This document shows positions 21,603 through 36,326 of a DNA stretch of 64,000 nt, piece by piece. The notes beneath the pieces are model-generated. The model saw nothing but the letters and a program-made list of their open reading frames with translations. It was not told the DNA's origin and did no database searches. Numbering within the stretch: position 1 is the first letter of the stretch; each line of letters begins with the position of its first letter. The stretch lies in the IMG/VR virus record IMGVR_UViG_3300011116_001229; one strand, written 5' to 3'. The stretch is from a virus (lineage: Duplodnaviria; Caudoviricetes). The position numbers were made by a program, and so were the translations under genes.

Positions 21603-22016
21603 TTGTACTTTACTTCCAATGATTCTAAAATACGATTAAGGAAAAGACACATGGATAAACTTGACGAGATGTATAACCAGCAGCGAGACTTCAATTATCT
21701 CTTGAGAGATGAAAGAGGTTATCCTGACTTTCCGCTCGATCTAAAAGAAAAGAAGAATCAACAGATTCTTAAGGGGCTTGCGCATGAGTGCATGCATGAA
21801 CTCTTCGAGGCTAATCATCTACTAAAGAATAGCAAGAATCATCGAGTTACCGAAGTAAAAGAATTTGACAGAGAGTCTTACAAAGAAGAACTTGTTGATG
21901 CGCTACATTACTTCTTTGGAATTGTAATCTATAGCGGCATTTCTGCAGAAGAGCTACATGAAGCTTTCATGAAGAAGGGTGCTGTTAACGTGCAACGAGT
22001 GAAGACCGGTTATTGA
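21603..22016 (+). CDS. All-alpha NTP pyrophosphatase (dimeric dUTPase/MazG-like)
   Basis: ECMHELFEA and KEELVDALHY acidic motifs. Confidence 0.75.
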   Translation: MYFTSNDSKIRLRKRHMDKLDEMYNQQRDFNYLLRDERGYPDFPLDLKEKKNQQILKGLAHECMHELFEANHLLKNSKNHRVTEVKEFDRESYKEELVDALHYFFGIVIYSGISAEELHEAFMKKGAVNVQRVKTGY

Positions 22017-22960
22017 CTATGACAAAGTGGGACGACTTGCATAATGCTCTAAAAGCTCAGAAATCCTTTTCCGATTATTTTTATGACACTAATCAACTAA
22101 CAAATGAGCAGAAAATTGAAGAACTAAAGACTTTGAGCTTAGCGTTACACTCTGAGATTTCAGAGATGTGCAATGCTGTCAATTACAAAGAGCATCGCAG
22201 AGAATCTCGCGAAACAGACTTGCAGAAGATTCTGTACAAGTCTGCTGATGCTTATCGTTATATTCTTGCTATAGCAAACCTATGGGGAATAACTGCAGAT
22301 AAATTAACATCTGCCTTAGAACAAAAGGACCACTATCTGCACTATAGACATCAACTTCGTGACAAGAGATGGTGCGGAGAACCGATTGTGCTCTTTGATA
22401 TTGACGACGTACTTGCTGAGTTCAGATATGAGTTCTGCAGATTTGTTACAGATCAGACTGGAATCTTCATGGATCCTAACAGCTCAGAGTACTATAACAC
22501 TGTTAAGTTCAAAGAACACGGTCTTAACAGCGAGTATTTCTTTAAAAAATTTATTGACGATCATGGATTTTTGAGATTGGACTTGAACAAGCGTTACTAC
22601 GATTTGTTGACGCGTCTAAAAGCTCGAGGACACTGGGTGCAAATAGTCACTGCACGAGATGCAAGCAATCTCACGTGTTTCTATGACACTTACGCATGGC
22701 TGCATCTCAACAACATTCCAGCAGATGATGTAGTTTTCACGCCCGAGAAATTTGCCTGGTTGGCAGGCCAAGATTTCTATAAGACAGCTCGATTATTTGC
22801 TGTTGATGATTCAGCAAAGCATGCATCTGAATACGCTAAGCATGGCGTGACTTGCGTTGTTCCAAAAAAATCTTACAATGTTGAAGTAAAAAATGTCAAG
22901 GGTGTCATCTACATCGAAGACAGCGACGATATTTTTGCTAAAATTAACACTATCCTTTAG
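22013..22960 (+). CDS. MazG-like NTP pyrophosphatase fused to HAD 5'-nucleotidase
   Basis: N-terminal ALHSEISE...ADAYRYI; C-terminal FDIDDVL (HAD motif I), IVTAR, K, VDDS. Confidence 0.75.
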   Translation: MTMTKWDDLHNALKAQKSFSDYFYDTNQLTNEQKIEELKTLSLALHSEISEMCNAVNYKEHRRESRETDLQKILYKSADAYRYILAIANLWGITADKLTSALEQKDHYLHYRHQLRDKRWCGEPIVLFDIDDVLAEFRYEFCRFVTDQTGIFMDPNSSEYYNTVKFKEHGLNSEYFFKKFIDDHGFLRLDLNKRYYDLLTRLKARGHWVQIVTARDASNLTCFYDTYAWLHLNNIPADDVVFTPEKFAWLAGQDFYKTARLFAVDDSAKHASEYAKHGVTCVVPKKSYNVEVKNVKGVIYIEDSDDIFAKINTIL

Positions 22961-23030
22961 CGCGAGAACGTGTTATACTTTACAGACTGCTCGACTAATA
23001 ATTGCAGCTTGACTCAAACTTGGAGAAATT

Positions 23031-24011
23031 ATGCCCATTAATAAAGACCTACAGCCGATTGAACTACCCATGGAATTAAAGTTCGGACGACCTGTTCGCA
23101 CCAAGTTCCATAATAATATTGATGCACTAAAGATTGAGCTCGTCGACCATCCTGCGCGTCAACAAGCATGGAACGTCGCTTGGCATTATGTTAAGGCAAC
23201 TTGGGCAGATAGACCTGACATCTCGCCTGAGTCTGTATCGCATCGAGAACTTTCTAAAAACCTGGAAGATGTTTTCGGAGGCCGCACTCTGCCAGCGCCC
23301 ATGGAATGTCTTGGCTTCACATTTAGATTAAGTGGTATGTCTTTTCAAGAGGTGACTCATATTATCAGACATCGTGCAGGAACTTTTGCTGCACAATGCA
23401 CAGGCGATCGTGACCTCCGAGATGATGATGCAGTAATTCCAGAACCCGTAGAGAATTCACCTGAGTTCTTAGCGCGCTGGAAGAAGATTGTGGAAGATTC
23501 CAAGCAACTCTATGCTGATATGACTGATTCAAAGGTTGTGTCCATGATGGACGCACGTTTGATTCTACCAAAGTGCATGACGTCTTTCTACTACATGCGA
23601 CTTCCTCTCAAGGAGCTAATTGGCTTCATCTATCAACGTCAGGATAGGCAGATTCAGACGTCAGCTGATAATATTCTGGCAGCACGCATGGCAGTTGAGG
23701 TGGCTAAGGTCATTCCTGAGTTCACTACGCTAGTTGATTTCAACAAGCCTGACATGCACTACATCAAGACCTTCCGCGTGAAGGAAGGTGATAAGTTCGT
23801 GTCTCGCGGAACGAACCTCTATTGGCCGGAACCCAAGAACGACAAGTTTGAGTTCCACCCAGATGACACTATCTACCAGGCTCGCCGTGAAGAGCTCAAC
23901 GGCACGCATGGTGATGGCCCACAGCGAAAGTTTGTAGCTGCCTGGGATTCTGCAGTGTCCGAGTTTGAGAGTATTAAAAAGCAACACAATGATTGGAAGG
24001 AAGGTAAATAA
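23031..24011 (+). CDS. Divergent ThyX-family flavoprotein
   Basis: FTFRLSG, HIIRHR, DARLILP; the motif after RHR departs from canonical ThyX. Confidence 0.75.
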   Translation: MPINKDLQPIELPMELKFGRPVRTKFHNNIDALKIELVDHPARQQAWNVAWHYVKATWADRPDISPESVSHRELSKNLEDVFGGRTLPAPMECLGFTFRLSGMSFQEVTHIIRHRAGTFAAQCTGDRDLRDDDAVIPEPVENSPEFLARWKKIVEDSKQLYADMTDSKVVSMMDARLILPKCMTSFYYMRLPLKELIGFIYQRQDRQIQTSADNILAARMAVEVAKVIPEFTTLVDFNKPDMHYIKTFRVKEGDKFVSRGTNLYWPEPKNDKFEFHPDDTIYQARREELNGTHGDGPQRKFVAAWDSAVSEFESIKKQHNDWKEGK

Positions 24012-24053
24012 AGTAATTAAGTACTTTTGTACCTGACGGAGATAAGTATAGCC

Positions 24054-24233
24054 ATGAAACAATCGAAGATCTCGGTCGATGAAGAGACCCATAAATTGCT
24101 GAAGATATACTGTGCTCAGCACGGTCTGATTATGAGTCAGTTCACCGCCGAGATCATTCGAGAGAGGATTGGCAATGAAAGAGAAGATCTGCGCACAATG
24201 CGAAAAGAAATTTGTGCCAAAGAATCCATTTAG
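24054..24233 (+). CDS. Small ribbon-helix-helix-like protein
   Basis: SKISVDEETHKLLKIYC..HGLIMSQF. Confidence 0.5.
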   Translation: MKQSKISVDEETHKLLKIYCAQHGLIMSQFTAEIIRERIGNEREDLRTMRKEICAKESI

Positions 24234-25068
24234 TAATAAGTCTGGTTTCTTCTTTTGCTCGAAAGAGTGCACTTATCTTGCTCAGAAGAAGGGCGGTGTC
24301 ACATATGAGCTCCGTCGAAAGAGGTCACTAGAGAAGCACGGCACCGACTTTCCAATGTCTTGCCCTGAGATAAAGAATAAGCGCAGCAACAACAACATAA
24401 AAAAGTACGGTGTTGCCAGCACGTTTGAACTTGATTCAGTCAAAGAGAAGTCAAAAAAGACTTCACGTGAGAAATATGGGGTTGATGTTTACTCACAAAC
24501 AACAGAATTCAAGTCCAAGATCGAAGAGACAAATCTAAAGAGATTCGGACATAAGTCTCCGATAGAAAATCCCAACATTCTAGAACGACGACGGCAGACA
24601 ATGATCGACAGATGGGGAGGTCCATCAACTTTCGAATCACCTGTTCTACGAGCTCGCGCTGAAGATACCTGTATTGAAAAGTTCGGAGTTCATAATATTG
24701 TCTTATCGCCGACGTTTATCTCTTCTTCCATGGATAAGAAACTGCTCAAATCACATGGAAAAACTTGGCAGCAGTACATCGATGACCTACCTGAATTTCA
24801 GGATTATCGAAGAAAAGTCGATCACTTTACACGCATGCAGCCGATCGAACAGCTAGCCAATCATGATAAACGTGGTGAATATCATCTCGATCACAAGTTT
24901 TCAGTCGCTGAAGGGTTTAGACAAGGTCTACCACCCGAGGTGATAGGTCACATTGTGAATCTGGAATTCATACCGGCTGCAGAAAATCTTCGAAAACAGT
25001 CAAGTTGTTCAATTGACAAAGACGCATTACTATCAGAATACTCAACTAGAAAGGTAAATCAAAGATGA
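24175..25068 (+). mobile_element. Free-standing homing-endonuclease-like gene (Zn finger, KYGV-type repeats, C-terminal HNH-like domain)
   Basis: CAQC/CSKEC; about six (E/K)K(Y/F/H)G repeats; YHLDHKFS...NL....ENLRK. Confidence 0.7.
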
Positions 25069-25520
25069 ATCGAAAAAAGATGTATCTCGCAAGCGGATGG
25101 TTCAACCCTACACAGGAAGCAGAGCTCACGAGGCTCGAGCAGATTATGGAAGCACGTAAGGACTGGATCGATATGGCTTCACCACGTAGGATCTTCATCT
25201 GTCCACCTAATGCATCTCGTGAAGTACAAGATGCAACCTATCAGGGTAATCTTAAACACATCCGCGAGGCTGACTTCCTCGTTGTGAACACCCGCGACAA
25301 GGATCTCGGTACGATCATGGAATGTGGTTATGCTACAGCCTTTGACAAGCATATCATCTACTTCTGTGCAGGACTTCCCCCCGGAGCAAAATTTAATCTT
25401 ATGCTTTCAAGATCGGGTGCATTCGTGGCTACTTCGTTCGAACAACTCGAAGACTACCTCGATCGGTGCAAGTCTGCAGGCGAGATGCTTTACGAACCGT
25501 ACGACAAGGAAATTGAGTGA
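25065..25520 (+). CDS. Nucleoside 2-deoxyribosyltransferase / dNMP N-glycosidase family
   Basis: MYLASGWF, ADFLVV, DLGTIMECGYA (catalytic Glu motif). Confidence 0.85.
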   Translation: MNRKKMYLASGWFNPTQEAELTRLEQIMEARKDWIDMASPRRIFICPPNASREVQDATYQGNLKHIREADFLVVNTRDKDLGTIMECGYATAFDKHIIYFCAGLPPGAKFNLMLSRSGAFVATSFEQLEDYLDRCKSAGEMLYEPYDKEIE

Positions 25521-25534
25521 CTTAAAGTGAAAAT

Positions 25535-25567
25535 GAAGAGAGGCGCTATAAAATTGGCGTCTCCTTC
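25535..25567. terminator. Hairpin, possible terminator
   Basis: GAGGCGC-tataaaattg-GCGTCTC with flanking GAAG/CTTC; no clear U tract. Confidence 0.4.
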
Positions 25568-25580: not shown

Positions 25581-26342
25581 ATGTTAATCAAGCTTTCACA
25601 ACTTCGTAAAATTATTAGAGAAGAGCTTTCACGTACTTTGAGTGAAGACGCATCTGATTTAAGCGCAGCAGAACCAAGCGAAATGGTAAAAAATCTAGCT
25701 GGGAAAACAGGATTGGGTCCTTTCTCTTACGGCCCTATCTCTTTAAGAAATTTAATGGCAAAAGTTGAATCAACAGGAGATATATCGCTGTTAGATAACT
25801 GGGACAAAGTAGTTGCTGCAGCGTATGAAACAGAGAAAGAAATAAAGCGAATAAGAAACACTCCTACTTATGAGATCACTGATGCGCAGGGAAATAAACA
25901 AGTTCGACCCAGATCTCCTGGTTCAATTTTAAATACTGAGAGTAGAAAAGCAGCTGAAGATGCAGCAGCTGAACAGGGCCTCGAAGGAGAAGTTGCCGGT
26001 CGAGATTATGCAGCATATGTTTCAACACTTGTCGATAGCATGAAGAACTTTAAACAGGTTCCGCCTATAAGAGCTGATATCCTCGCTGCTCTTGAATTTC
26101 GCAAACAAAAGAAAGAAGCTCACGAGAATAGAGAGGCTTCACCCGAAGATATAAAGAAGCTTAGAAATCTTTTAGCATCCCACGATTGGTACTACGAGAG
26201 AGCTGAAGGTCTTCAGCCGTCTTATACTAAGGGTGCTGCTCAAGCCGAAGAGATTAAGCTCCTTGTCAATAAAATGGGCAAAACAGGTAGAGATATGTAC
26301 AACGCTGCCGCAGCAAAAGCATTCCCAAAGGGTGCGACTTGA
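25581..26342 (+). CDS. Hypothetical protein with shared N-terminal motif
   Basis: MLIKLSQLRKIIREEL; TAATTA at 25569. Confidence 0.7.
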   Translation: MLIKLSQLRKIIREELSRTLSEDASDLSAAEPSEMVKNLAGKTGLGPFSYGPISLRNLMAKVESTGDISLLDNWDKVVAAAYETEKEIKRIRNTPTYEITDAQGNKQVRPRSPGSILNTESRKAAEDAAAEQGLEGEVAGRDYAAYVSTLVDSMKNFKQVPPIRADILAALEFRKQKKEAHENREASPEDIKKLRNLLASHDWYYERAEGLQPSYTKGAAQAEEIKLLVNKMGKTGRDMYNAAAAKAFPKGAT

Positions 26343-26405
26343 TCTAAGCGAGATGATTAAAATCTTCTTTGCAGTTATATTTAAAGACATCATTTGGAGA
26401 AAAAC

Positions 26406-26684
26406 ATGAAATTGACATCATCACAGCTTCGCAAGATCATCTCAGAAGAGGTCTCAAAGGTTGTCACCGAGCAAGGATTAACACCAGGCAGACTTGCGCT
26501 AGGATCACTTGCAGATATTTCTGAAATAGAAAAAGCAAAAGCTGCTTTAGACTCTTTTCGTATGCACATAGAGAAGAATGCTATCGCCGAGGGGCATGAC
26601 AGTGAAGAAGCAGAAGACTTCGCGCGCGACGGATTGGGCGAGATGTTTCAAGAATTCATGCAAAGCATTGGATACAGGATGTGA
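26406..26684 (+). CDS. Hypothetical protein with shared N-terminal motif
   Basis: MKLTSSQLRKIISEEV; GGAG Shine-Dalgarno favours 26406 over 26394. Confidence 0.7.
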   Translation: MKLTSSQLRKIISEEVSKVVTEQGLTPGRLALGSLADISEIEKAKAALDSFRMHIEKNAIAEGHDSEEAEDFARDGLGEMFQEFMQSIGYRM

Positions 26685-26724: not shown

Positions 26725-26756
26725 AAAAAGCGACCTTGTATTTGGTCGCTTTTTTT
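26725..26756 (+). terminator. Rho-independent terminator
   Basis: AAAAAGCGACC-ttgtattt-GGTCGCTTTTTTT. Confidence 0.85.
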
Positions 26757-26764
26757 GTTATAAT
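26736..26764 (+). promoter_or_regulatory. Sigma70-type promoter overlapping the terminator
   Basis: TTGTAT-N17-TATAAT with TG extension; the -35 box lies in the terminator loop. Confidence 0.75.
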
Positions 26765-26783
26765 GGTCTGCATCGGAGGAAAC

Positions 26784-27878: not shown

Positions 27879-28772
27879 ATGGAGAGTAAATGTGAAGTTT
27901 GCGGAATTAGCATAGAATCAAAACCAAGACTACGTACTTGTTCAAAAAAATGCGGTTACGTGTTGAGAAGTCGTACTAGAAATATAAAACATGAGCCTGT
28001 TGAAAAGATATGTCTCGACTGCGAGTGTAATTTTCAAGATACTTCAAAAAAGAAGTTAGTCGTTAGATGCAAACCATGCATAAACAATTCCATGGTTGCT
28101 ACACGTTACGCAAGAGGAAGCTATGAGCGCTCAGAAGAGCAGAACGAGAAATTGTCTATTACGCTTAAGACAAAGTACGAATCAGGATGGAACCCTAACA
28201 CTGAAGAGCATCGAGAAAAATTATCCGAGGGAATGAAGGCTCGCTGGCAAGATGGTTCAATGAGAAAGAAGTCGGTTGCAACAACGCTTGAAAAGTATGG
28301 AGTTGAGCACTGGGCGCAGTCTGAAGAAGGAAAGACAGTGCTATCACAGAGGTCAAGAGGCAGAAAATTTTCTGATGAAACTCGTAAAAATATGAGTCAA
28401 GGCGCTGCAAGGCGCATTAGAGAGAATAATAATCATTATGAACGAGGTAATGGAGGTTTTAGAGAAGACCTCGGACACTATGTACGGAGTAACTGGGAAG
28501 CTAATTTTGCTAGAATATTAAAAATTCAAGGAAAGTCTTACGAATACGAACCTAAGACATTTCAAATTGCTGAGGATAAAACGTATACACCCGATTTTCT
28601 TGTCGATGGTATTTTCTACGAAGTTAAAGGCTATTGGACCGAAAAATCGAAACTTAAATTAGAATCATTTGTAAAAATATATCCCGAAATAGAATTGCAA
28701 ATCATCGACGGCACAAAGTACAATGAGCTTAGAGAAGCTTACCAAGATCTAATTCACTGGGAAGGCAAATAA
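27879..28772 (+). mobile_element. Homing-endonuclease-like gene (Zn fingers, NUMOD3-like segment, T7 endonuclease I-like PD-(D/E)XK domain)
   Basis: CEVCG/CSKKC, CLDC/CKPC, KYGV, GRKFSDETR, RSNWE...YEYEP...YTPDF...EVKGYW. Confidence 0.75.
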
Positions 28773-28775
28773 TAA

Positions 28776-31700
28776 ATGAACAGCACAAAGGAGAAGAGCT
28801 ACTTGAAGCTTGAGTCCGTGCGACCTCCTACTCGGTTTGTGGGGTTTCACGCGCACTCAGGCTTCTCGTAAAGTTACGACATTTGACGGTTTGGGTTACC
28901 CTGCAGATCACATTGCCTTTGTCACCTCTGAGTCACAAGGCATGGATGCCTGGGCACTGACAGATCACGGCAATGGCAACGGACTTGCACACGCACATTC
29001 TGCTGCCAAGAAGATTCAGAAGAAAGGTGTGAAGTATCGACAGCTCTACGGCGTGGAGTTCTACTTCGTTCCTTCACTTTCGCAGTGGCGTATCGATTAC
29101 GAGGCCCACAAGCAATCAGTCAAGGACGCGAAGTCTGCAGCTGAGGCTGAGAAGAAAGCAAAGATTCGAACTGACATCGACGCTGACGAGGCAGCAGAGG
29201 AAGAGGAGGCCGGTGGCCACGTCGTGGAGGATGAGGCAGAGACGAAGGCCGACGACTACAAGGAGAAGCCTGACTGGCAGCGTCGTTACCACCTCGTGGC
29301 AGTGGCGCAGTCAGCTGAGGGGCTCGCGAACATCAACCGTCTCGTCAAGGCATCATTTAAAGACGGATTCTACCGTTATCCACGCATCGACTTCGACCTC
29401 CTCAGAAAGTGGGGCAAAGGGATCGTGTGGTCGAGCGCCTGCCTCGGCGGAACAATGGCGGGTACAATTCTACGAGGCGTAGCACATAATAGAACTTCTG
29501 AGCAAATTATTGCTGATCTTGAAGTTCTCACAGGTCAGTTCGTCGAAGCAGTCGGCCAAGAGAACTTCTTCCTCGAACTGCAATTCAATAAGCTCGAGAA
29601 ACAACACACCGTAAACAAGTACCTCATCGACCTGTCTCGAAAGACCGGTGTGAAGCTGCTGGCCACATGCGACTCTCACTATCCAGATCCCTCCAAGTGG
29701 CAGGCCCGTGAGCTCTACAAGAAGCTGGGCTGGATGGGCACGAAGCTAGACGAGCAAGCACTACCGAAGTTCGAGGACCTGAAGTGCGAGCTGTATCCCA
29801 AGAACGCTACCCAGATGTGGGACGAGTTCAAGAAGTCCTACGAACAGTACGACTTCTACAAGGGTTCCGAGGAGGAAGTTCGTGACGCGATCGAGCGGAC
29901 TCACGACGTCGCTTGGCAGCATTGCGAGGACACTTGGGTCGATGTGAAACCAAAGCTGCCCAAGGTCGACACACCAGAAAAAACAGCATTCCAGCAGCTC
30001 ACTGAGCTTGTTAAAGAAGGTCTTACCCGCGAAGGTCTTGCTGATAAGCCTGAGTATGTCGATCGAGCTAAATATGAGCTCGGAGACATCAAATATCTGA
30101 ATTGTGCTTCTTACTTCATTACGATGTATAAAGTGTTCAATCTTGCGAAGGAGAAGACGCTCTTTGGAAGCGGCCGCGGGAGTGGTGCGGGATCGCTCGT
30201 CAACTTCCTGTTAGGCATCACGCAGATCGATCCGATACCATACGGTTTGCTTTGGAGCAGATTTTTAGGACGACACCGAGTGAGCTTTCCGGATATCGAT
30301 ACAGACGCAGGTGACAGGGATGTCCTTATCGATGCGGCACGAACTCTGTTCGGCGATGACGCCGTGATCCCGGTGTCCAACTTCAACACCCTGAAGCTCA
30401 AGTCCCTCGTCAAGGACATCGCCAAGATCTACGGCGTGCCCTTCGAGGAGGTGAACGAGATGACCGGCCCTCTCCAGGACGAGGTGATGCCGCTGGCTCG
30501 AGACGAGGACCAGGAGAAGTCGGTCTTCGTGCTGAAGCATGAGGACTGCATGAAGTACTCGCCGAAGTACACGGCCTTCATGGAGAAGTATCCTGACGTT
30601 GCTGCACACGTCGAGACACTGTTCATGCAGAACAGGTCCATCGGAAGGCATGCAGGAGGCGTACTCTTAGCAGATCCTGAAGATCTTGCTGCAAACATGC
30701 CTATCATTGGCGTCAGAGGCGAGCTGCAGACACCGTGGACAGAGGGTATGAACTTCCGCAATCTGGAGGATAACGGCTTCTTGAAGTTTGACTTCCTAGG
30801 TCTCACGCTTCTCAAAGATGTCGAGAACTGCATTAGACGCATTCTCATCAAGAATGGCAATCTTGATCCTACCTTCCTGGACATTAGAGGCTTCTTCGAC
30901 AAGCATCTAAACTGTCGATACGTGAAGCAGGACGATCCTGCTGTGTGGAAGCATGTCTACCAGGACGGCTCGTTTGTGTCAGTCTTCCAGATGACTGCAG
31001 AGGGTGCTCGGAAGTTCTGCAAGGCAGTTAAACCGACGAAGATCGAAGACCTCACAGCTATTACAGCGATCTACCGCCCTGGGCCTCTCAAAGCAAACGT
31101 GCACAACCTCTTTGTCGAAGCTAGAAAGCTTGACAAGATCAATTACCCACACCCAATCATCGAGCAAGTCCTTGGACCTACGAAAAATTTCGTTGTGTAT
31201 CAGGAACAATTTATGTTGTTAGCAGAAAAACTAGGTGGCTTTACACCTGGTGAAGCTGATCAGCTGCGCAAGACGCTAGTTAAGAAGTCGCTTGACACGC
31301 TGGACAAAAAGTCATCAGAGAAGGAGCTTGCTAAGCAGAAGTTTATTGAGGGTGCTCAGCGACTTCACGGAGTTCCTCCAGAAGTGACCGAGCCTCTTTG
31401 GCAAACAATTGACAACATGAGCGTCTATTGTTTCAATAAATCCCACAGTTTAGCATATGCTATCGATTCCTACTATGCAGCATGGCTTCATACACACTAC
31501 GAGAAAGAGTGGCTGGCAACTGCACTTCAATCAGCTTCCAGCAACCCAAAAGAACTTGCGAAGACGATCTCCGAGATCAAGGCGTTAGGCTTCAAGTTCT
31601 CGAAGCACGACATCAACTACTCGGGCAAGGAGTGGCAGTTCTCTGAGGAGGCCGATGCTTTCGTGCCGCCTCTCGGTTCAGTGAAGGGAATTGGATCTGC

Positions 31701-32409
31701 AGCAGTTGAAGAGATCATGGCGAACAGGCCCTACAAGGATCTAGCTACTATGCTCTATGACGACGCAGGTGAGTGGCGACACAGCAAGGTGAACAAGACA
31801 GCTCTGTCAGCTCTTTGCAAGATTGATGCGCTTTCTTCTTTGGAAGATTTTAATCTAGGTAGAGTTAATAATCATAAGCAACTTCTAATGGCTTTGACAG
31901 ATGACAAGAATTACGAGATGCTTCGACGTGGTCTCTACGGCCTGACTGCATCGCAGCTGAAGAAGAAAGCTAAGGCCGGCGAAAAGATCGAAGCTTTCTT
32001 GGATCTAATGCTTACATCGCTAACAAATGTCGAAGATTGGTCTCGAGAAGAAAAGATTGAGATGTGTCAAGATTTAACACAATCTGTGGACACTGACCTG
32101 CTGTTTCCTCCCGCAGTCATGGAAAAGATTGCAGAAAAAAATGTTCCAAAACTTCATGATGTACCAGCAGGGGCTGAGGGAATAGGATGGTTCTGCGTTG
32201 CTGAAATTCAAATGAAGAAAACTAAGAATGGTAAAGTTTTCTATCGAATTAAAGCAACAGACGATGAACATCGAACAGCTTGGGTTAGAGCATGGGGAAC
32301 TCCAAAGGAAGAAATTCGTCCATACACACTTTGGGTTGCTCAAGTTCAAAATGATCCAAACTGGGGATTCTCAACGTCTGTGTATAAGATGCGTGAACTA
32401 GTTGGGTGA
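28776..32409 (+). CDS. dnaE: DNA polymerase III alpha (DnaE), interrupted: segment 28776-28868, 10-nt gap 28869-28878, segment 28879-32409
   Basis: First segment encodes FVGFHAHSGFS then TAA. The +1 frame resumes TFDG and continues TDHGN, GRGSGAGS, FPDIDTD, HAGG, KFDFLGL, YRPGP, YQEQ, FNKSH, KGIG and an OB domain. Confidence 0.93.
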
Positions 32410-32416
32410 GACTACA

Positions 32417-33328
32417 ATGAAGACACAACTTCCTATCAGGTATATAATCGTCGAAGGACCGGACCTTGCAGGTAAATCTACGTTTATTCAGCAACTGCAT
32501 AAGGTGACAGGTTTTAAATACAATATTCAGGATAGATCATGTCTTTCTATGTTGTGCTACGCGAGACAGTATAGTCGGGATATTGATCTACAGCGTCAAT
32601 TCTTGCATGAAGAGTTGTCTGATCTTAATAACTTTTTTATTGTGCTCCTACCATCAGAAGAAGTTTTGCTAGATCGACTTGCGTATAGAGGCGATGAGTT
32701 TCAGAATTCATCATCCGTTGTGACTCTTAGAAATCTATTTGTTGAAGAGACTGAAAGTGTTGAGCACAAACCGAATGTTCTCGTGATTAGAAATATTGCT
32801 TCAGCAGAACAGCTAGCTGAGTATGTCAGTCAGCGTTTGCGCTCATATGAAAGTCCTACAATTGAAAAAGCTGGTGCGATGACTTCACGCTGGATTACAA
32901 GTGATCAACATCCTGAAATGCAACTAAAGCTTAAGCTGCACATCAATCCAGCACATGATGATGCTGAAATACTCAAACATCCGCATGAAGGTGAATATTA
33001 TTCTGGAATATTGGAAAGATGTTGCTCAATTATTCAAGATGAATTGGATGGAAAGAATCCGTACAACAAACCACAAGATCTCACGTCAAGACGGTTCTTC
33101 TATTCAAGTGATTCTTGCATCTCATCTATTCACTTTTTGCCAAGAGACGGCAGTTTAAAAGTTCTTTGCACGCTCCGCAGTACTGACGTTAACAAGAATG
33201 GATCGATTGACACGAGATTTTTAGCTCACTTGTCAGCTTTCGTTGCTAGGAAATTTAAATGGCCAACATCTAACATTGCGCTTTTCATCAACTTTAATAG
33301 TGCACATGTAAGAAAAGATTTAGAGTGA
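32417..33328 (+). CDS. NMP kinase fused to a truncated thymidylate-synthase-fold domain
   Basis: EGPDLAGKST and QDRS in the kinase part; SCISSIHF...LRSTDV..N..D...NSAHV in the TS-like part. Confidence 0.7.
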   Translation: MKTQLPIRYIIVEGPDLAGKSTFIQQLHKVTGFKYNIQDRSCLSMLCYARQYSRDIDLQRQFLHEELSDLNNFFIVLLPSEEVLLDRLAYRGDEFQNSSSVVTLRNLFVEETESVEHKPNVLVIRNIASAEQLAEYVSQRLRSYESPTIEKAGAMTSRWITSDQHPEMQLKLKLHINPAHDDAEILKHPHEGEYYSGILERCCSIIQDELDGKNPYNKPQDLTSRRFFYSSDSCISSIHFLPRDGSLKVLCTLRSTDVNKNGSIDTRFLAHLSAFVARKFKWPTSNIALFINFNSAHVRKDLE

Positions 33329-33344
33329 CATTATAATTGCTGAC

Positions 33345-34340
33345 ATGATTAAGATACTGATAACTGGCGCTGCAGGTTTGCTGGGAAATAATCTATCACG
33401 ACATTTTATTAGCAAGGGATTCAGGGTTGTCGGAGTAGATGACTTTAGCGGTGGATTTAAAGATTTAGTGCATGGAAATGTGCATCTGTATGAATGTAAT
33501 CTGACGGACGATAAAAAAGTTTCTCAGATCTTTATGACAGAAAAACCCGACTATGTGTTTCACTTTGCAGCATATGCAGCTGTTGGTTTGAGTCCATTTA
33601 TACGCAGGCACAACTATATGAATAATGTTGTTGCTTCTGCAAATGTTATTAATGCGTGTGTCAATTATGGAGTTCAAAAGCTAATATTTGCAAGCTCAAT
33701 GGACGTATACGGCACGCAAGATCCACCGTTTGTTGAGTCCCAGCGACCTATGCCAGAAGATCCGTATGGCATTGCAAAATTTACAATAGAGCAGGACATA
33801 CATGCTGCAGGTCGCCTTTTTGGCCTGAGATACAGCATCGTAAGGCCCCACAATGTCTTTGGTGTCTACCAGAATATTTGGGACAAATATAGGAATGTAA
33901 TAGGCATCTGGATTAGGCAGAGTTTATCTGGACAACCCCTGACAATCTATGGTGAAGGCAAGCAGATGCGCTCTTTCTCCGACATTGAATTTTACATGGA
34001 GCCTTTTGAGAAACTATTGGAGCTAGGTGATGGTGAGATTTACAATATTGGTGCTGATAGCTACGTCTCTATTTCCGAAGCTGCAAGTAGATTTCAGTCT
34101 GTTGCAAAGCATAATGGTCTTGACACTTCGGTTATTCACCTCGAACCTCGAGATGAAGTAATTTTTGCTTATTGCGATCATTCAAAAGCCAAGAGTCAGC
34201 TAGGTTTTAAAGACGGCACACATTTTGAAAATCTAGTTAACAAAATGATTATATGGGCGAAAAGTCAACCACAAAGACCTGTTAAGTTAATGGATTATGA
34301 AATAGAAAAGGGAATGTACTCTTATTGGAAGAAGAGTTAA
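33345..34340 (+). CDS. NAD-dependent NDP-sugar epimerase/dehydratase
   Basis: ITGAAGLLG, HFAA, YGIAK, RPHNVFG, RSFSDI. Confidence 0.9.
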   Translation: MIKILITGAAGLLGNNLSRHFISKGFRVVGVDDFSGGFKDLVHGNVHLYECNLTDDKKVSQIFMTEKPDYVFHFAAYAAVGLSPFIRRHNYMNNVVASANVINACVNYGVQKLIFASSMDVYGTQDPPFVESQRPMPEDPYGIAKFTIEQDIHAAGRLFGLRYSIVRPHNVFGVYQNIWDKYRNVIGIWIRQSLSGQPLTIYGEGKQMRSFSDIEFYMEPFEKLLELGDGEIYNIGADSYVSISEAASRFQSVAKHNGLDTSVIHLEPRDEVIFAYCDHSKAKSQLGFKDGTHFENLVNKMIIWAKSQPQRPVKLMDYEIEKGMYSYWKKS

Positions 34341-34366
34341 TATGACTGCGTACAAGGAGAGCAGAA

Positions 34367-35320
34367 ATGATTAAGGCGCTTATTACTGGGGGAGCTGGTT
34401 TTATTGGAAGCAATTTATGTAATACACTACATAAAATGGGATGGGATATTGACATTGTTGACAATATGTCTAATGGTCATGTTGAATTTTTGCATGTTGA
34501 TCTTCGATCAGAAAAACTTTGGGTTGAAGATTTTGCTGCTTATGAAGTTCTTGAAAAGATTGGTAGCAAAGAATATGATTACGTCTTTCATTTGGCTGCA
34601 AATCCAAGAGTAACTTACTCTATTGAAAATCCTGTTGAAACACATGAAACTAACGTTTTGAAAACGTTAATGCTGCTAGACGCATGTAAAGGCAATATTA
34701 AGCGCTTAGTTTTTGCTGCATCTTCATCTACTTATGGAAATGCCGATGTACTCCCAACGACCGAGGATTTGCCAGACAGCCCAAAATCACCGTATGCTTT
34801 GCAGAAAGCAATCGTTGAAAAATACTTAAAACTTTATAGCGAGCTCTACGGTTTAGATTCTGCCTGTCTTAGGTTCTTTAATGTTTTTGGACCGAACCAG
34901 CTTGGTGATTCCCCCTACTCTACGGCAATTTGTGCATGGTTGACAGCAATTAAAAGAGATAAATCAATGAGATCAGACGGCGATGGATCTCAATCACGCG
35001 ACATGTGTTACGTTGATAATGTTGTTGATTGCTTGATTAAAGCTGCAATTGCTGAGAAAAATTTAAACGCTGAAGTTTTAAACGTTGGTGTTGGTGAAAG
35101 CGTTTCTAACGCCGAGATTCTTAAATATCTTAAAAAGAAGTATCCACAAGCAGTCTCACATGACGCTCCGTGGAGACCAGGCGATGTCATGCATACTAAG
35201 TCTGATATCTCAAAGGCAAAGAGGCTTATCGGATATGAACCAAAAGTTGATGTCTGGCAGGGCTTAGACAAAACTATCGTATGGTTTGAGGAAAACTGGT
35301 CCTGGCTTAAGAATATGTGA
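34367..35320 (+). CDS. NAD-dependent NDP-sugar epimerase/dehydratase
   Basis: ITGGAGFIG, HLAA, SSSTYG, YALQK, RFFNVFGP, RDMCYV. Confidence 0.92.
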   Translation: MIKALITGGAGFIGSNLCNTLHKMGWDIDIVDNMSNGHVEFLHVDLRSEKLWVEDFAAYEVLEKIGSKEYDYVFHLAANPRVTYSIENPVETHETNVLKTLMLLDACKGNIKRLVFAASSSTYGNADVLPTTEDLPDSPKSPYALQKAIVEKYLKLYSELYGLDSACLRFFNVFGPNQLGDSPYSTAICAWLTAIKRDKSMRSDGDGSQSRDMCYVDNVVDCLIKAAIAEKNLNAEVLNVGVGESVSNAEILKYLKKKYPQAVSHDAPWRPGDVMHTKSDISKAKRLIGYEPKVDVWQGLDKTIVWFEENWSWLKNM

Positions 35321-35329
35321 GGATTGATC

Positions 35330-35899
35330 ATGACTATTGTACCTGAGTTTATTGTTTACACCGGCCCGATGTTTTCTTCAAAAACATCAAGTCTTCTATC
35401 TTCACTTGAAAGATACAAATATCAGCACAAGAGAATTGTGCTCTATAAGCCTGAAATTGACGACAGATATAGCATTTCCGAAGTTGTCACACATGGCGGT
35501 CTTAAGATGCCTGCGTTTTGTGTTAAGACGGGCGCTGATATAATTGAGCACTTAGCAACTCTTAATGAAAATCCACACGTAATCGCAGTAGATGAGGCAT
35601 TCATGATTGCGGGTGTTGCAGATACACTTATTTGGCTGTATAGAAATGGTTACACTGTTGTTGTATCATCTTTGGACTTGTCAGCTGCAGGCACTGTTTT
35701 TCATGAGATTGAAAAGATGATGATCTGGGCGACTAGAGTTGAAAAATGCACCGCTGTTTGTACTGTCTGCGGTAGAGATGCTCATTACACTCATAAAAAG
35801 CAGACTGGGGGAGAAGAGATTGAAGTTGGTGGATCGGAACTTTACGAGCCAAGATGTTTCTTACACCATCTGCATATTGATAAGAGGCTAACGGACTGA
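35330..35899 (+). CDS. tdk: Thymidine kinase
   Basis: GPMFSSKT, VDEAF, C-terminal CTVC...YEPRC..H lasso/zinc site. Confidence 0.9.
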   Translation: MTIVPEFIVYTGPMFSSKTSSLLSSLERYKYQHKRIVLYKPEIDDRYSISEVVTHGGLKMPAFCVKTGADIIEHLATLNENPHVIAVDEAFMIAGVADTLIWLYRNGYTVVVSSLDLSAAGTVFHEIEKMMIWATRVEKCTAVCTVCGRDAHYTHKKQTGGEEIEVGGSELYEPRCFLHHLHIDKRLTD

Positions 35900-35900
35900 C

Positions 35901-36326
35901 ATGGACAGACCCGCATGGCCTGAAACGTGGATGAAGATTGCTTGGAATATCTCAGACAGATCTTATGATCCTCGACTAAAAGTTGGCGCTATAATTGTTT
36001 CAGACGATAATACTCGATTGCTTTCACTAGGCTATAACGGAAATTATCGAGGCGGTCCAAATGAGCCTGAGAGTGATGTGCCCGGACAAAGCGGAATGAT
36101 TCACGCAGAAGTAAATGCATTAATTAAATGTGATTATAATTTCAATAGAAAAAAGATCATGTACCTAACACATTCGCCGTGTGTATCATGCGCCAAGCTT
36201 ATTGTAAATGCCGACATTGCCAGTGTAATTTATGACGTGGAGTACAGGGATCTTTTGGGCTTGCAGATACTTACAAATTCAGGCATTCATGTAAATAGAC
36301 TGGGTGACTTGATAATTAGATCTTGA
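35901..36326 (+). CDS. dCMP deaminase
   Basis: VGA, GYNG, HAEVNAL, SPCVSCAK. Confidence 0.92.
   Translation: MDRPAWPETWMKIAWNISDRSYDPRLKVGAIIVSDDNTRLLSLGYNGNYRGGPNEPESDVPGQSGMIHAEVNALIKCDYNFNRKKIMYLTHSPCVSCAKLIVNADIASVIYDVEYRDLLGLQILTNSGIHVNRLGDLIIRS

What the first reader, a model, noticed from the sequence alone, without database searches (positions are those of the whole stretch)
21603..36326. Putative DNA base hypermodification pathway wrapped around dnaE
Seen: two all-alpha NTP pyrophosphatases (one fused to a HAD nucleotidase), a divergent ThyX paralog, a dNMP N-glycosidase/deoxyribosyltransferase, three NDP-sugar SDR enzymes, an NMP kinase-TS-fold fusion, thymidine kinase and dCMP deaminase flank the polymerase. 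Canonical thyX, tmk and dut already exist at 3-12 kb, so these paralogs are surplus for dTTP supply. No glycosyltransferase is recognisable in the window. Known: phages that replace a base pair a TS-family modifier, a dedicated kinase and enzymes that destroy the canonical nucleotide. Inference: a modified, possibly sugar-bearing pyrimidine is made at the nucleotide level.
Basis: partly seen in the sequence, partly recalled or inferred. Interest (0 to 1): 0.75.

Follow-up and report, generated by a model that had tools for sequence, protein, structure and literature searches.

The report
Conserved phage pyrimidine-modification module around dnaE
An uncultured giant freshwater phage carries, around its DNA polymerase gene, a gene set shared with unrelated phages that most likely makes a chemically altered cytosine (or other pyrimidine) for its DNA, using two enzyme types that nobody has yet characterised.

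Summary
The cluster is also broken up by two homing endonucleases and two non-conserved ORFs.

The order MazG, MazG-like/NT5C nucleotidase, Cys-bearing ThyX paralog (ThyXp), NDT, SDR, dnaE, kinase-miniThyA fusion, SDR, TK, dCMP deaminase recurs in about 80 marine and freshwater viral contigs.

The fusion is a P-loop nucleotide kinase joined to a minimal ThyA fold. That fold keeps the catalytic Cys, Arg-Ser and His, and has the cytosine-type Asp at ThyA position N177. Its nearest structures are the phage HY126 dCMP hydroxylase and the T4 dCMP hydroxymethylase.

ThyXp, the mini-TS, a kinase, an NDT and a 5'-nucleotidase also occur together in two unrelated settings:
- the cultured Geobacillus phage GR1;
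- a PolB-encoding phage contig.

This marks them as a functional module. The best reading is pre-replicative C5 modification of dCMP, of the T4/RB69 kind, with the canonical pool drained.

- ThyXp's chemistry is unknown.
- The sugar link (three SDRs plus a UDP-sugar pyrophosphorylase) is not shown.
- No glycosyltransferase was recognised in the window.

Earlier follow-ups in this scan described the same module on other genomes. This is a new variant of a known kind, and it can be tested in phage GR1.

The parts
21603..22016 (+). MazG1: all-alpha (MazG / dimeric-dUTPase type) NTP pyrophosphatase. Candidate enzyme for clearing a canonical dNTP. Likely true start is ATG 21651.
   Evidence: Pfam dUTPase_2 27.3 bits. 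PHROG 12184 1.3e-13. Metal-binding EExFE...EExxD motifs are conserved in 59 relatives. Present in 73 of 82 loci.
22013..22960 (+). Degenerate MazG-like N-terminal domain fused to an NT5C-type HAD 5'(3')-deoxyribonucleotidase (dNMP to deoxynucleoside).
   Evidence: Pfam NT5C 24.6 bits and dUTPase_2 E 0.0034. HAD motifs D.DDV / T.RP / DD.KH are conserved, while the N-terminal domain is poorly conserved. Present in 68 loci.
23031..24011 (+). ThyXp: ThyX-fold flavoenzyme paralog with a rewired active site and a conserved C-terminal extension of about 90 aa.
   Evidence: Thy1 59 bits. AF2 pLDDT 81, with Foldseek hits to PolB 4p5b and T. maritima ThyX at TM about 0.7. C123 aligns with Tm S88 and C93 with Tm H53; R90/Y91 are lost; R147/R174 are kept. 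Identity across 80 loci is 55-86%.
24169..25068 (+). DUF7487 homing endonuclease inserted between ThyXp and NDT. Not part of the pathway.
   Evidence: Pfam DUF7487 84 bits; PHROG homing endonuclease. Absent at this spot in most relatives: ThyXp and NDT are directly adjacent in 58 of 76 loci.
25065..25520 (+). Nucleoside 2-deoxyribosyltransferase (NDT) of a phage-specific subfamily.
   Evidence: Pfam 54 bits. Best solved match is 6evs NDT. Y7/GWF, the catalytic Glu (IMECGYA) and NLM are kept; the Asp72 equivalent is Asn. Present in 76 loci. 37% identical to the GR1 NDT.
25581..26684 (+). Two ORFs (253 and 96 aa) of unknown function. Not conserved in relatives; probably cargo of the neighbouring mobile endonucleases.
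   Evidence: No Pfam or PHROG hit. Absent from nearly all related loci.
26736..27776 (+). SDR1: extended-SDR NDP-sugar epimerase/dehydratase at a conserved position between NDT and dnaE.
   Evidence: Pfam Epimerase 99 bits. Best solved match is T. maritima UDP-hexose 4-epimerase 4zrm, 2.4e-19. GGAGFI and YGVQK motifs are intact. The SDR family occurs in 71 loci.
27879..28772 (+). Free-standing endonuclease (DUF7487 plus endonuclease I-like). A mobile element, not part of the pathway.
   Evidence: Pfam Phage_endo_I 29.0 bits; PHROG endonuclease. Rare in relatives.
28776..32409 (+). dnaE (Pol III alpha type replicative polymerase). Its first roughly 31 codons are in another frame, separated by a 10-nt stop-containing insert at 28869-28878.
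   Evidence: Pfam PHP, DNA_pol3_alpha, finger and HHH_6. Frame break seen directly.
32402..33328 (+). P-loop nucleotide kinase (residues about 8-153) fused to a minimal ThyA-fold domain (about 155-308) with a cytosine-type Asp. Candidate dCMP C5-modifying enzyme plus kinase. Likely start is ATG 32417.
   Evidence: AF2 pLDDT 93, pTM 0.89. Kinase half: VIA Z 14.4 to YorR 2axp, also TMKs and dNKs. TS half: Foldseek 9iqu (HY126 dCMP hydroxylase) 3e-6, 9iqc, T4 dCH 1b5d; VIA 9iqc Z 10.3. Profile against PDB: T4 dCH 9e-4. Invariant E, Y, RR, C, RS, D, H.
33345..34340 (+). SDR2: GalE-like NDP-sugar epimerase/dehydratase. Present only in close relatives.
   Evidence: Pfam Epimerase 166 bits. NCBIfam galE 136 bits, below cut-off. 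More than 60% identity only in L002 and L005.
34367..35320 (+). SDR3: TviC/GalE-like UDP-sugar 4-epimerase type. Its ortholog follows the kinase-miniTS gene in most relatives.
   Evidence: Pfam Epimerase 171 bits. NCBIfam TviC 168 and galE 159 bits, both below cut-off. 42-58% identity downstream of the fusion gene in about 12 loci.
35324..35899 (+). Thymidine kinase (type II).
   Evidence: Pfam TK 131 bits. Conserved downstream in relatives.
35901..36326 (+). dCMP deaminase (ComEB type).
   Evidence: Pfam dCMP_cyt_deam_1 69 bits. NCBIfam ComEB 62 bits.
11413..12665 (+). Canonical thyX (11413-12081) and tmk (12078-12665): the ordinary dTTP route, outside the finding.
   Evidence: Pfam Thy1 129 bits and Thymidylate_kin 34 bits. 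A canonical ThyX coexists with ThyXp in 4 of 4 large relatives.
52869..53924 (+). UDPGP-family UDP-sugar pyrophosphorylase. A possible source of UDP-sugars for the SDRs.
   Evidence: Pfam UDPGP 124 bits. Found only in the closest relative G001 among four.

Best explanation
The region is a pre-replicative pyrimidine-nucleotide modification module built around the replicative polymerase gene.

Most likely path (all steps are inferred from homology, none is shown):
1. A MazG-type pyrophosphatase turns a canonical dNTP, probably dCTP, into the monophosphate.
2. The minimal ThyA-fold domain attacks C6 of dCMP with Cys239 and reads the cytosine with Asp270. It installs a C5 substituent of the hydroxymethyl or hydroxy type.
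3. The fused P-loop kinase phosphorylates the product at once, so that host NDP kinase and DnaE can put it into DNA.
4. The Cys-bearing ThyX paralog is a fixed companion. Either it supplies the flavin or one-carbon half of this chemistry, since the mini domain lacks ThyA's folate-binding ends, or it makes a second modified pyrimidine.
5. The NT5C-type nucleotidase, NDT, TK and dCMP deaminase drain or recycle the canonical or deaminated pyrimidine pool at the nucleoside level.
6. The SDR enzymes, with the UDP-sugar pyrophosphorylase, may make a sugar donor for glycosylation of the new base on DNA. This is the weakest link.
For: (1) Fusion protein.
- It is a confident two-domain model.
- The kinase half matches YorR, TMKs and dNKs (Z 11-14).
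- For the second half the top Foldseek hits are the HY126 dCMP hydroxylase 9iqu/9iqc and T4 dCMP hydroxymethylase. A profile of the family also hits T4 dCH (E 9e-4).
- The alignment places C239 on ThyA C146, R259/S260 on R166/S167, D270 on N177 and H302 on H207. All are invariant in 18 family members.
- Asp at N177 is the established dCMP marker (PMC13326640).

(2) Kinase precedent. In that paper the modifying TS homologs need a cognate dNMP kinase before the base enters DNA. Here the kinase is fused.

(3) Module conservation within the lineage.
- Family counts: MazG1 in 73 of 82 loci, nucleotidase 68, ThyXp 82, NDT 76, SDR 71.
- ThyXp is more conserved than dnaE in the same loci.
- The fusion is present in 4 of 4 large relatives.

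(4) Recurrence in unrelated phages.
- Cultured Geobacillus phage GR1 has ThyXp immediately followed by a stand-alone mini-TS. It also has a separate P-loop kinase, an NDT, an HD protein, a glycosyltransferase and dnaE, but no canonical ThyX or ThyA.
- Contig L100 reads TMK-like, NDT, HD(YfbR-like), ThyXp, mini-TS, UDG-PolB.
- L105 shows the HD, ThyXp, mini-TS part of this order.
- The nucleotidase role is filled by non-homologous enzymes (HAD here, HD there).

(5) Other mini-TS genes sit next to sugar-activation genes (L102, L103) or short ThyA homologs with a kinase (L106-L108).

(6) ThyXp is not redundant with ThyX: both occur in 4 of 4 large relatives.

(7) Precedent for the NDT role: a preprint reports one purified phage NDT with a preference for dA as donor and proposes that it helps deplete dA in phages with diaminopurine genomes (bioRxiv 10.1101/2025.10.22.683976).

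(8) No palindrome avoidance in the window. This is weak, and merely compatible with protected DNA.
Against: - No enzyme activity or modified base has been shown anywhere for this module.
- The mini-TS domain is not detected by Pfam Thymidylat_synt. By my reading of the alignment it lacks ThyA's N-terminal and C-terminal folate-binding parts, so it could be a binding or regulatory domain.
- MazG1's nearest cultured relatives are merely annotated dUTPase or MazG. Its dCTP specificity is a guess.
- The window's enzyme has Asp, not Asn, at the ThyA-169 position, so the published 5-hydroxy-dCMP signature is not met. The family is mixed: 12 D, 4 N, 2 E.
- The neighbourhood is rich in ordinary pool-balancing genes: RNR, dut, thyX, tmk, GMP reductase, TK and dCMP deaminase, plus PurA/PurB in a relative.
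- No glycosyltransferase and no cytosine-DNA-specific nuclease was recognised in 64 kb.
- SDR genes are absent from the module in GR1 and L100.
- The phage also carries an N6/N4 DNA methylase.
Confidence: 0.55

Rival explanations
1. Ordinary dNTP pool rebalancing and salvage. The genes recycle host nucleotides into canonical dNTPs that suit a 40% G+C phage in nutrient-poor water. The routes would be dCMP deaminase, ThyX and TK toward dTTP, and GMP reductase toward A. NDT and the nucleotidase would shuffle deoxyribose between bases. No modified base would be made.
For: RNR, dut, thyX, tmk, GMP reductase, TK and dCMP deaminase lie in the same block. Relative L079 adds PurA and PurB next to GMP reductase inside the module. 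NDT and NT5C are classical salvage enzymes. MazG1's relatives are annotated dUTPase.
Against: A ThyA-fold domain with the cytosine-type Asp has no role in canonical metabolism. ThyXp is kept beside a normal ThyX in 4 of 4 large relatives and has lost the ThyX signature residues. The five-gene core travels together between unrelated phages with different polymerases.
Confidence: 0.2
2. The SDR enzymes and the UDP-sugar pyrophosphorylase do not belong to the nucleotide pathway. They feed virion or host-surface glycosylation, for example the 30-kb glycan block noted elsewhere in this genome. They sit here only because gene order is inherited.
For: No glycosyltransferase was recognised in the window. 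The module in GR1 and L100 has no SDR. Relatives L005 and L084 lack SDR1. UDPGP is shared only with the closest relative.
Against: SDR1 keeps its place between NDT and dnaE in most of the 80 loci, including the most divergent one, L082. An SDR3-like gene directly follows the kinase-miniTS gene in about 12 loci. Other mini-TS genes are linked to sugar-activation genes. GR1 has a glycosyltransferase in its module.
Confidence: 0.5
3. The modified base is a thymine or uracil derivative, for example of the 5-hydroxymethyl-dU type, made by ThyXp from dUMP. The nucleotidase would then remove dTMP or dUMP. The mini-TS domain would be secondary.
For: ThyXp keeps the Arg residues that align with T. maritima ThyX R147 and R174. 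NT5C-family nucleotidases are known for dUMP/dTMP preference (general knowledge). TK accepts 5-substituted dU (general knowledge). GR1 also carries amidoligase and gamma-glutamylcyclotransferase genes nearby.
Against: The phage keeps a complete canonical dTTP route: thyX, tmk, TK and dCMP deaminase. The only residue here with an established specificity rule is the cytosine-type Asp of the mini-TS.
Confidence: 0.15
4. The module's product is not a DNA precursor. It is either a small nucleoside or nucleotide used against the host or its defences, or a repair of pools attacked by dCTP-deaminase or dNTPase defence systems.
For: NDT- and TS-family pairs make free modified bases in nucleoside-antibiotic pathways such as MilA/MilB (general knowledge; MilA is mentioned). 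There is no direct evidence that the product enters DNA.
Against: The module is consistently placed against the replicative polymerase in three polymerase contexts (DnaE, GR1 PHP polymerase, PolB). The kinase is fused, which points toward triphosphate formation.
Confidence: 0.07
5. The cluster serves a 2,6-diaminopurine (dZ) genome. MazG1 would act as MazZ, and the nucleotidase and NDT would remove dA.
For: A preprint links NDT, YfbR-like HD and UDG-polymerase domains to dZ contigs in aquatic viromes. The complete relative G002 has a 346-aa PurA/PurZ-sized gene.
Against: No adenylosuccinate-synthetase homolog was found among the window ORFs scanned with Pfam. None was found in GR1, which is complete, or in G001, G003 and G004, which are partial. 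ThyX- and ThyA-fold enzymes act on pyrimidine C5.
Confidence: 0.05

Closest known systems
T4-type 5-hydroxymethyl-dC pathway (gp56 dCTPase, gp42 dCMP hydroxymethylase, gp1 dNMP kinase, cd dCMP deaminase, tk, DNA glucosyltransferases)
   Same: The logic is the same: an all-alpha NTP pyrophosphatase, a ThyA-fold enzyme with Asp at the N177 position, a nucleotide kinase, a dCMP deaminase and a TK beside replication genes. A profile of the mini-TS family hits T4 dCH (E 9e-4).
   Different: The ThyA fold is cut down to about 150 aa and fused to the kinase. The Pfam ThyA model fails. A ThyX paralog, an NDT and a 5'-nucleotidase are fixed extra parts. No DNA glycosyltransferase was recognised. The polymerase is DnaE, not gp43.
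Flavin-dependent 5-hydroxy-dCMP synthases (HY126 AfhB, RB69 gp48, DLP3 gp80) and arabinosyl-5hoC pathways (PMC13326640)
   Same: The nearest solved structures to the mini-TS half are 9iqu and 9iqc. Both are short TS homologs without the folate-closing C-terminus. Both need a cognate kinase. In both cases sugar-nucleotide genes lie nearby.
   Different: The published D169N signature is absent in this window (Asp262). It is present in 4 of 18 relatives and in GR1. The domain is about 70-80 aa shorter at the N-terminus. The sugar genes here are SDR epimerase/dehydratases and a UDPGP, not the isomerase, kinase, phosphatase and pyrophosphorylase set.
Flavin-dependent thymidylate synthase ThyX (T. 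maritima TM0449) and the UMP/dUMP methylase PolB
   Same: The fold is the same (Foldseek E about 1e-9, TM about 0.7). The RHR motif and the Arg residues aligning with Tm R147 and R174 are kept.
   Different: Tm S88 becomes an invariant Cys. Tm H53 becomes Cys. R90 and Y91 are lost. A conserved C-terminal extension of about 90 aa is added. The protein scores far below the ThyX equivalog cut-off. It coexists with a normal ThyX.
Phage NDTs associated with modified (dZ) genomes (bioRxiv 10.1101/2025.10.22.683976)
   Same: A phage NDT sits beside a dNTP- or dNMP-hydrolysing enzyme and the polymerase. The proposed role is depletion of the canonical nucleoside.
   Different: There the link is to purine replacement with PurZ and DatZ. 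Here the partners are pyrimidine C5 enzymes, and no PurZ was found among the window ORFs scanned with Pfam.

Membership tests
ThyX / flavin-dependent thymidylate synthase (EC 2.1.1.148), for 23031-24011 | Thy1 domain and ThyX fold | tested here: met
   Pfam Thy1 59.3 bits against a cut-off of 24.8. Foldseek to ThyX and PolB structures, E about 1e-9, TM by target about 0.7.
ThyX / flavin-dependent thymidylate synthase (EC 2.1.1.148), for 23031-24011 | ThyX signature RHRxxSxxxxSxRY and an equivalog-level score | tested here: not met
   The motif reads RHRAGTFAAQCTGDR. Cys stands at the second Ser (Tm S88), and Arg-Tyr is replaced by Gly-Asp. TIGR02170 scores 32.8 bits against a cut-off of 87.9.
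ThyX / flavin-dependent thymidylate synthase (EC 2.1.1.148), for 23031-24011 | Sole or needed source of dTMP | tested here: inconclusive
   A canonical ThyX coexists with it in the window and in 4 of 4 large relatives. GR1, however, has only the paralog.
ThyA superfamily (thymidylate synthase / dCMP hydroxymethylase), for residues 155-308 of 32402-33328 | Catalytic constellation: Cys nucleophile, Arg-Arg, Arg-Ser, and His at the ThyA 207 position | tested here: met
   C239, R230/R231, R259/S260 and H302 are invariant in 18 sequences. They align to T4 dCH and HY126 AfhB.
ThyA superfamily (thymidylate synthase / dCMP hydroxymethylase), for residues 155-308 of 32402-33328 | Full ThyA fold detected by the family model, including the folate-binding N- and C-terminal parts | tested here: not met
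   No PF00303 hit in the window protein or in relatives. The domain is about 150 aa against 217-264 aa for known members. Structural matches cover only part of the targets (TM by target 0.27-0.48; VIA 145 residues aligned, Z 10.3).
ThyA superfamily (thymidylate synthase / dCMP hydroxymethylase), for residues 155-308 of 32402-33328 | Cytosine specificity: Asp at the E. coli ThyA N177 position | tested here: met
   D270 is invariant. It lies 11 residues after R259 and aligns with T4 dCH D179. The rule is taken from PMC13326640.
Flavin-dependent 5-hydroxy-dCMP synthase (AfhB / RB69 gp48 type) | Asn at the ThyA D169 position (the D169N signature) | tested here: not met
   The window reads RSTD (Asp262). 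Among 18 family members there are 12 Asp, 4 Asn and 2 Glu. GR1 reads RSSN.
Flavin-dependent 5-hydroxy-dCMP synthase (AfhB / RB69 gp48 type) | Bound flavin and O2-dependent hydroxylation | not testable with these tools
   This needs purified protein and 18O2 labelling, as in PMC13326640.
T4-type cytosine replacement system | dCTP-specific pyrophosphatase | tested here: inconclusive
   MazG1 is an all-alpha NTP pyrophosphatase with intact metal motifs. Nothing indicates its substrate, and its relatives are annotated dUTPase or MazG.
T4-type cytosine replacement system | DNA glycosyltransferase acting on the modified base | tested here: inconclusive
   None was recognised by Pfam or PHROG in the window ORFs scanned, or by Atlas look-alikes for two large unknown ORFs. 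The rest of the genome could not be searched.
Nucleoside 2-deoxyribosyltransferase (PF05014), for 25065-25520 | Family domain with the catalytic Glu and nucleoside-type N-terminal motif | tested here: met
   Pfam 54.3 bits. The aligned motifs YLASGWF, IMECGYA and FNLML match 6evs and 1f8x. They are conserved in 62 relatives.
NT5C 5'(3')-deoxyribonucleotidase (HAD), for residues about 120-300 of 22013-22960 | HAD motifs I-IV and the family model | tested here: inconclusive
   Pfam NT5C 24.6 bits against a cut-off of 24.8. Motifs DIDDV, T.RP and DD.KH are conserved. PHROG also hits PNK- and GmhB-like phosphatases.
Extended SDR NDP-sugar epimerase/dehydratase, for the three SDR genes | Rossmann GxxGxxG, catalytic YxxxK, and the family model | tested here: met
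   Pfam Epimerase scores are 99, 166 and 171 bits. The SDR1 alignment to 4zrm shows GGAGFI and YGVQK. No NCBIfam equivalog cut-off is reached, so the substrate is unknown.
2,6-diaminopurine (dZ) pathway | PurZ (an adenylosuccinate-synthetase homolog) | tested here: not met
   No PF00709 hit in any scanned window ORF. Among relatives only G002 has one. The rest of this phage's genome is not available.

The most novel reading that the evidence does not exclude
The Cys-bearing ThyX paralog and the minimal ThyA-fold domain form a new kind of pyrimidine C5-modifying system. The mini domain would hold and activate dCMP. The flavoenzyme would deliver the one-carbon or oxygen unit. The result would be a DNA base not yet described, possibly sugar-tailored by the SDR enzymes, in an abundant and globally distributed lineage of giant marine and freshwater phages and in phage GR1.
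Probability: 0.3. Interest if true: 0.85.

Novelty: new variant of a known kind. Interest (0 to 1): 0.7.

Why it matters
Pre-replicative base replacement is a major phage counter-defence, and it is a source of enzymes for making modified DNA. In this module the two central enzymes are of types I found in no paper:
- a ThyX fold with Cys at two active-site positions;
- a ThyA fold reduced to its nucleotide-binding core and fused to a kinase.

The module is common in nature. More than 1,100 ThyXp clusters at 90% identity were found, and 391 mini-TS clusters at 50% identity. They come from lakes, rivers, estuaries and the sea.

If it does make a new base, many abundant aquatic phages have DNA that standard methods misread. 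Their host range, their resistance to restriction and CRISPR, and their metagenomic recovery would then need re-reading. A cultured carrier, Geobacillus phage GR1, makes the question directly testable.

Tried and rejected
- Complex prediction of ThyXp with the mini-TS domain gave no verdict. It is reported here only and counts neither for nor against binding.
- No whole genome is held for the window. Genes outside the 64 kb, such as a glycosyltransferase or PurZ, could not be searched.
- The window has no DNA-level relative among cultured phages. The kinase fusion and its mini-TS half have no tblastn match among cultured phages. GR1's mini-TS and ThyXp match only GR1 itself.
- Single-sequence searches of solved structures found nothing for ThyXp, for the HAD fusion or, usefully, for MazG1.
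- The 193-aa ORF between ThyXp and NDT in relative L003 gave only an insignificant FNR-like match (E 0.27). The 'dedicated flavin reductase' lead therefore stays open.
- Variable inserts inside the module in relatives held no glycosyltransferase.
- Atlas look-alikes for two large unknown ORFs gave a DUF6267/RNA-ligase-like protein and nothing usable.
- Sequencing runs: the phage is held by DNA runs of 7 studies, but only as contigs. Base-level signs of modification could not be read, and read laying was not used. No RNA holder was listed.
- Literature searches found no paper on Cys-bearing ThyX paralogs, on kinase-ThyA fusions or on phage GR1's DNA.
- Palindrome statistics show no avoidance, but this is too weak to carry weight.

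Full report
**What is there.**
- The window is a piece of an uncultured giant phage. No whole genome is held for it, and it has no DNA-level relative among 50,697 cultured phage records.
- DNA runs from lake, river and estuary samples of seven studies hold the stretch.
- All genes of the finding lie on the + strand. In order they are:
  - MazG-type pyrophosphatase (21603-22016);
  - MazG-like/NT5C HAD nucleotidase (22013-22960);
  - a long ThyX paralog, here called ThyXp (23031-24011);
  - a DUF7487 homing endonuclease (24169-25068);
  - an NDT (25065-25520);
  - two ORFans (25581-26684);
  - SDR1 (26736-27776);
  - a second endonuclease (27879-28772);
  - dnaE (to 32409);
  - a kinase fusion (32402-33328);
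  - SDR2 and SDR3 (33345-35320);
  - TK (35324-35899);
  - dCMP deaminase (35901-36326).
- The canonical dut, class I/II-type RNR, thyX, tmk and a GMP reductase lie upstream.
It omitted the mobile endonucleases, the ORFans and a UDP-sugar pyrophosphorylase at 52869-53924.

**Conservation.**
- A search of IMG/VR with ThyXp returned 113 related stretches. The best 80 are 55-86% identical, from marine and freshwater samples.
- I clustered the ORFs of 82 loci. ThyXp occurs in all 82, NDT in 76, MazG1 in 73, the SDR family in 71 and the HAD fusion in 68. The order is fixed: MazG1, HAD fusion, ThyXp, NDT, SDR, dnaE, kinase fusion, SDR, TK.
- ThyXp and NDT are directly adjacent in 58 of 76 loci.
- ThyXp is more conserved than dnaE in the same loci.
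- Four large relatives of 200-284 kb, one of them rated complete, each carry a canonical ThyX, a ThyXp and the kinase fusion, even where these lie far apart. None has a ThyA.
- ThyXp has more than 1,100 clusters at 90% identity in public metagenomes. All are named ThyX only by automatic annotation.

**The kinase fusion.**
- AlphaFold2 on an 18-sequence alignment gives a confident two-domain model (pLDDT 93, pTM 0.89).
- Residues 8-153 match the SPbeta YorR protein (Z 14.4), thymidylate kinases and deoxynucleoside kinases (Z 10-12).
- For the rest, Foldseek's best solved structures are:
  - the phage HY126 dCMP hydroxylase AfhB (9iqu, E 3e-6);
  - its flavin complex (9iqc);
  - T4 dCMP hydroxymethylase, MilA and ordinary ThyA.
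- VIA-align gives 9iqc Z 10.3 over 145 residues.
- A profile of the C-terminal domain alone hits T4 dCMP hydroxymethylase (E 9e-4) and 9iqu (E 0.05) by sequence.
- Those alignments place Cys239 on the ThyA nucleophile C146, Arg259-Ser260 on R166-S167, Asp262 on D169, Asp270 on N177 and His302 on H207. Arg230-Arg231 sit in an SRRF motif like ThyA's R126-R127.
- Of these, only the D169 position varies among the 18 sequences.
- Lee et al. (PMC13326640) state that Asp at N177 selects dCMP. They also state that Asn at D169 marks the flavin-dependent 5-hydroxy-dCMP synthases, and that these enzymes need a cognate dNMP kinase for the base to reach DNA.
- Here the Asp270 rule is met. The D169N rule is not met in this window, but it is met in 4 of 18 relatives and in phage GR1. 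The kinase is fused.
- The domain has only about 150 residues. By my reading of the alignment it lacks ThyA's N-terminal part and its folate-closing C-terminus. Pfam's ThyA model does not see it.
- It is thus a reduced member of the ThyA superfamily. Its catalytic core is intact and its cofactor site is missing or different.
- A profile search of 1.8 billion representatives found 391 relatives. Most are about 300 aa, that is, fused; some are stand-alone.

**ThyXp.**
- The AF2 model (pLDDT 81) has the ThyX fold. PolB, a UMP/dUMP methylase, and T. maritima ThyX are the best matches.
- In the profile alignment to T. maritima ThyX, the RHR motif and the Arg residues aligning with R147 and R174 are kept.
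- The invariant Cys123 falls on S88. The top hit is in fact the S88C mutant structure. The nearly invariant Cys93 falls on H53, and R90-Y91 are replaced by Gly-Asp.
- A C-terminal extension of about 90 residues with invariant GTNLY.P..D.F..D..Y is added.
- It scores far below the ThyX equivalog cut-off.
- This is a neofunctionalised ThyX. I could not deduce its substrate or product.

**The module travels between unrelated phages.**
- The only cultured phage with a ThyXp is Geobacillus phage GR1 (44.6% identity).
- In GR1 the ThyXp gene is followed, with touching stop and start, by a 151-aa 'hypothetical protein'. This is a stand-alone mini-TS with Cys, RSSN, Asp and His.
- A separate 145-aa P-loop protein in GR1 matches the kinase half.
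- The same GR1 region holds an NDT, an HD protein, a glycosyltransferase, a nitroreductase, a PHP/DnaE polymerase, a small dUTP diphosphatase and a TK.
- GR1 has no canonical ThyX or ThyA.
- A metagenomic contig, L100, with a UDG-PolB polymerase reads TMK-like, NDT, HD (YfbR-like), ThyXp, mini-TS, polymerase. Its ThyXp and NDT belong to the same subfamilies. L105 shows the HD, ThyXp, mini-TS part.
- Other stand-alone mini-TS genes occur in two further settings:
  - directly after short ThyA homologs of 214-242 aa with a P-loop kinase (L106, L107, L108);
  - beside a HAD-kinase, an aldolase-II-type enzyme and an NTP-transferase, a sugar-activation set (L102, L103).
- Thus the mini-TS always comes with a kinase-like gene, and in most cases with a second C5-pyrimidine enzyme. 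The nucleotidase role is filled by non-homologous proteins, HAD here and HD elsewhere. This is what one expects of a functional module rather than inherited gene order.

**Accessory parts.**
- MazG1 has intact metal-binding motifs, but nothing reveals its substrate.
- The N-terminal MazG-like part of the HAD fusion is poorly conserved and may be inactive. The HAD part has NT5C-like motifs.
- The NDT resembles true nucleoside transferases.
- A recent preprint reports that one purified phage NDT prefers dA as donor, and proposes that it helps deplete dA in diaminopurine phages. This is a precedent for a pool-draining role.
- No adenylosuccinate-synthetase homolog was found among the window ORFs scanned with Pfam, or in GR1, so the diaminopurine reading is unlikely.
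- SDR1 is a normal-looking NDP-sugar epimerase/dehydratase. SDR3 is TviC/GalE-like.
- The SDRs are positionally conserved within this lineage. They are absent from the module in GR1 and L100.
- The UDP-sugar pyrophosphorylase is shared only with the closest relative.
- No glycosyltransferase was recognised in the window or in the variable inserts of relatives.
- The sugar link is therefore open, at roughly even odds.

**Verdict.**
A nucleotide-level pyrimidine modification is the best explanation (about 0.55). It is most likely a C5-substituted dC made and phosphorylated by the fusion, with ThyXp as an obligatory but unexplained partner.
- Attachment of a sugar at the nucleotide level is not supported.
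- The main rival is plain pool rebalancing. The many ordinary nucleotide genes nearby favour it, including PurA/PurB in a relative. It does not explain a cytosine-type ThyA core or a rewired second ThyX.
- The closest known systems are the T4 hydroxymethyl-dC pathway and the RB69/HY126 5-hydroxy-dC pathway.
- This module differs from them in three ways: the reduced, kinase-fused ThyA fold; the ThyX paralog; and the fixed nucleotidase and NDT.
- I found no paper describing these enzymes.
- Earlier follow-up reports of this scan reached a similar reading for the same module on other genomes. I treated those only as leads and tested the sequence claims here.

Noticed in passing
window 28776-28890: The start of dnaE is split. 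The frame from ATG 28776 reads ...FVGFHAHSGFS and stops at TAA 28869. TFDGLGYP resumes in the +1 frame 10 nt later. The insert TAAAGTTACG lies inside the inverted repeat TCGTAA-AG-TTACGA. Removing it would restore the PHP motif HxHSxFSxxDG.
   Followed up: partly
window 7452-10955: The ribonucleotide reductase large subunit carries an intein with an HNH endonuclease and a C-terminal TSCPD domain.
   Followed up: no
window 3966-4970: A Volactin-family actin homolog (Pfam 232 bits) lies among the replication genes (gp32-like SSB, RecA, DnaB, 5'-3' exonuclease).
   Followed up: no
window 55681-60118 (minus strand): A PrkA / SpoVR / DUF444 (YeaG-YcgB-YeaH type) stress-response triad is carried by the phage. 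GIY-YIG homing endonucleases flank it at 54784-55596 and 61135-61911.
   Followed up: no
window 60306-61100; relatives such as L040:7083-7892: An Fpg/Nei-type DNA glycosylase. In 46 related loci this gene sits just upstream of MazG1. Some relatives also have an HhH-GPD fragment there.
   Followed up: partly
L100:3683-9364; L105:66-1836: An unrelated phage contig has TMK-like, NDT, HD(YfbR-like), ThyXp and stand-alone mini-TS genes, followed by a UDG-PolB fusion polymerase. This is the same module with a different polymerase family.
   Followed up: yes
L106:970-2811; L107:2715-4457; L108:3832-12558: Stand-alone mini-TS genes follow short ThyA-family genes (214-242 aa) and a P-loop kinase. L108 also has dCMP deaminase, a dUTPase_2 protein, dnaE and a long Thy1 gene.
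   Followed up: partly
L102:3666-9641; L103:1499-7474: A mini-TS gene lies beside a HAD-PRK kinase, an aldolase_II-type enzyme and a 516-aa NTP-transferase. This sugar-activation set recalls the arabinosyl-5hoC clusters.
   Followed up: no
L079:7183-10704; G002:C1:212797-213723: Relative L079 carries adenylosuccinate lyase, adenylosuccinate synthetase and GMP reductase inside the module. The complete relative G002 has a 346-aa PurA/PurZ-sized homolog.
   Followed up: partly
L104 (Streptococcus phage vB_SagM-GXN1, PQ819873) 8001-10347: An unannotated NDT of this subfamily (37% identity) is followed by an HD protein and a 411-aa 'thymidylate synthetase'. That protein has no BLAST likeness to ThyXp or the mini-TS.
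   Followed up: partly
window 43867-45651: A DUF6267/RNA-ligase-like protein (396 aa) lies next to a cytidylyltransferase/NMNAT-like gene on the opposite strand. The Atlas shows the two domains fused in other phages.
   Followed up: no
window 1-64000: No avoidance of 4- or 6-bp palindromes. The mean z of 6-mer palindromes is 0.04, none falls below -2.1, and GATC has an observed/expected ratio of 1.01.
   Followed up: yes
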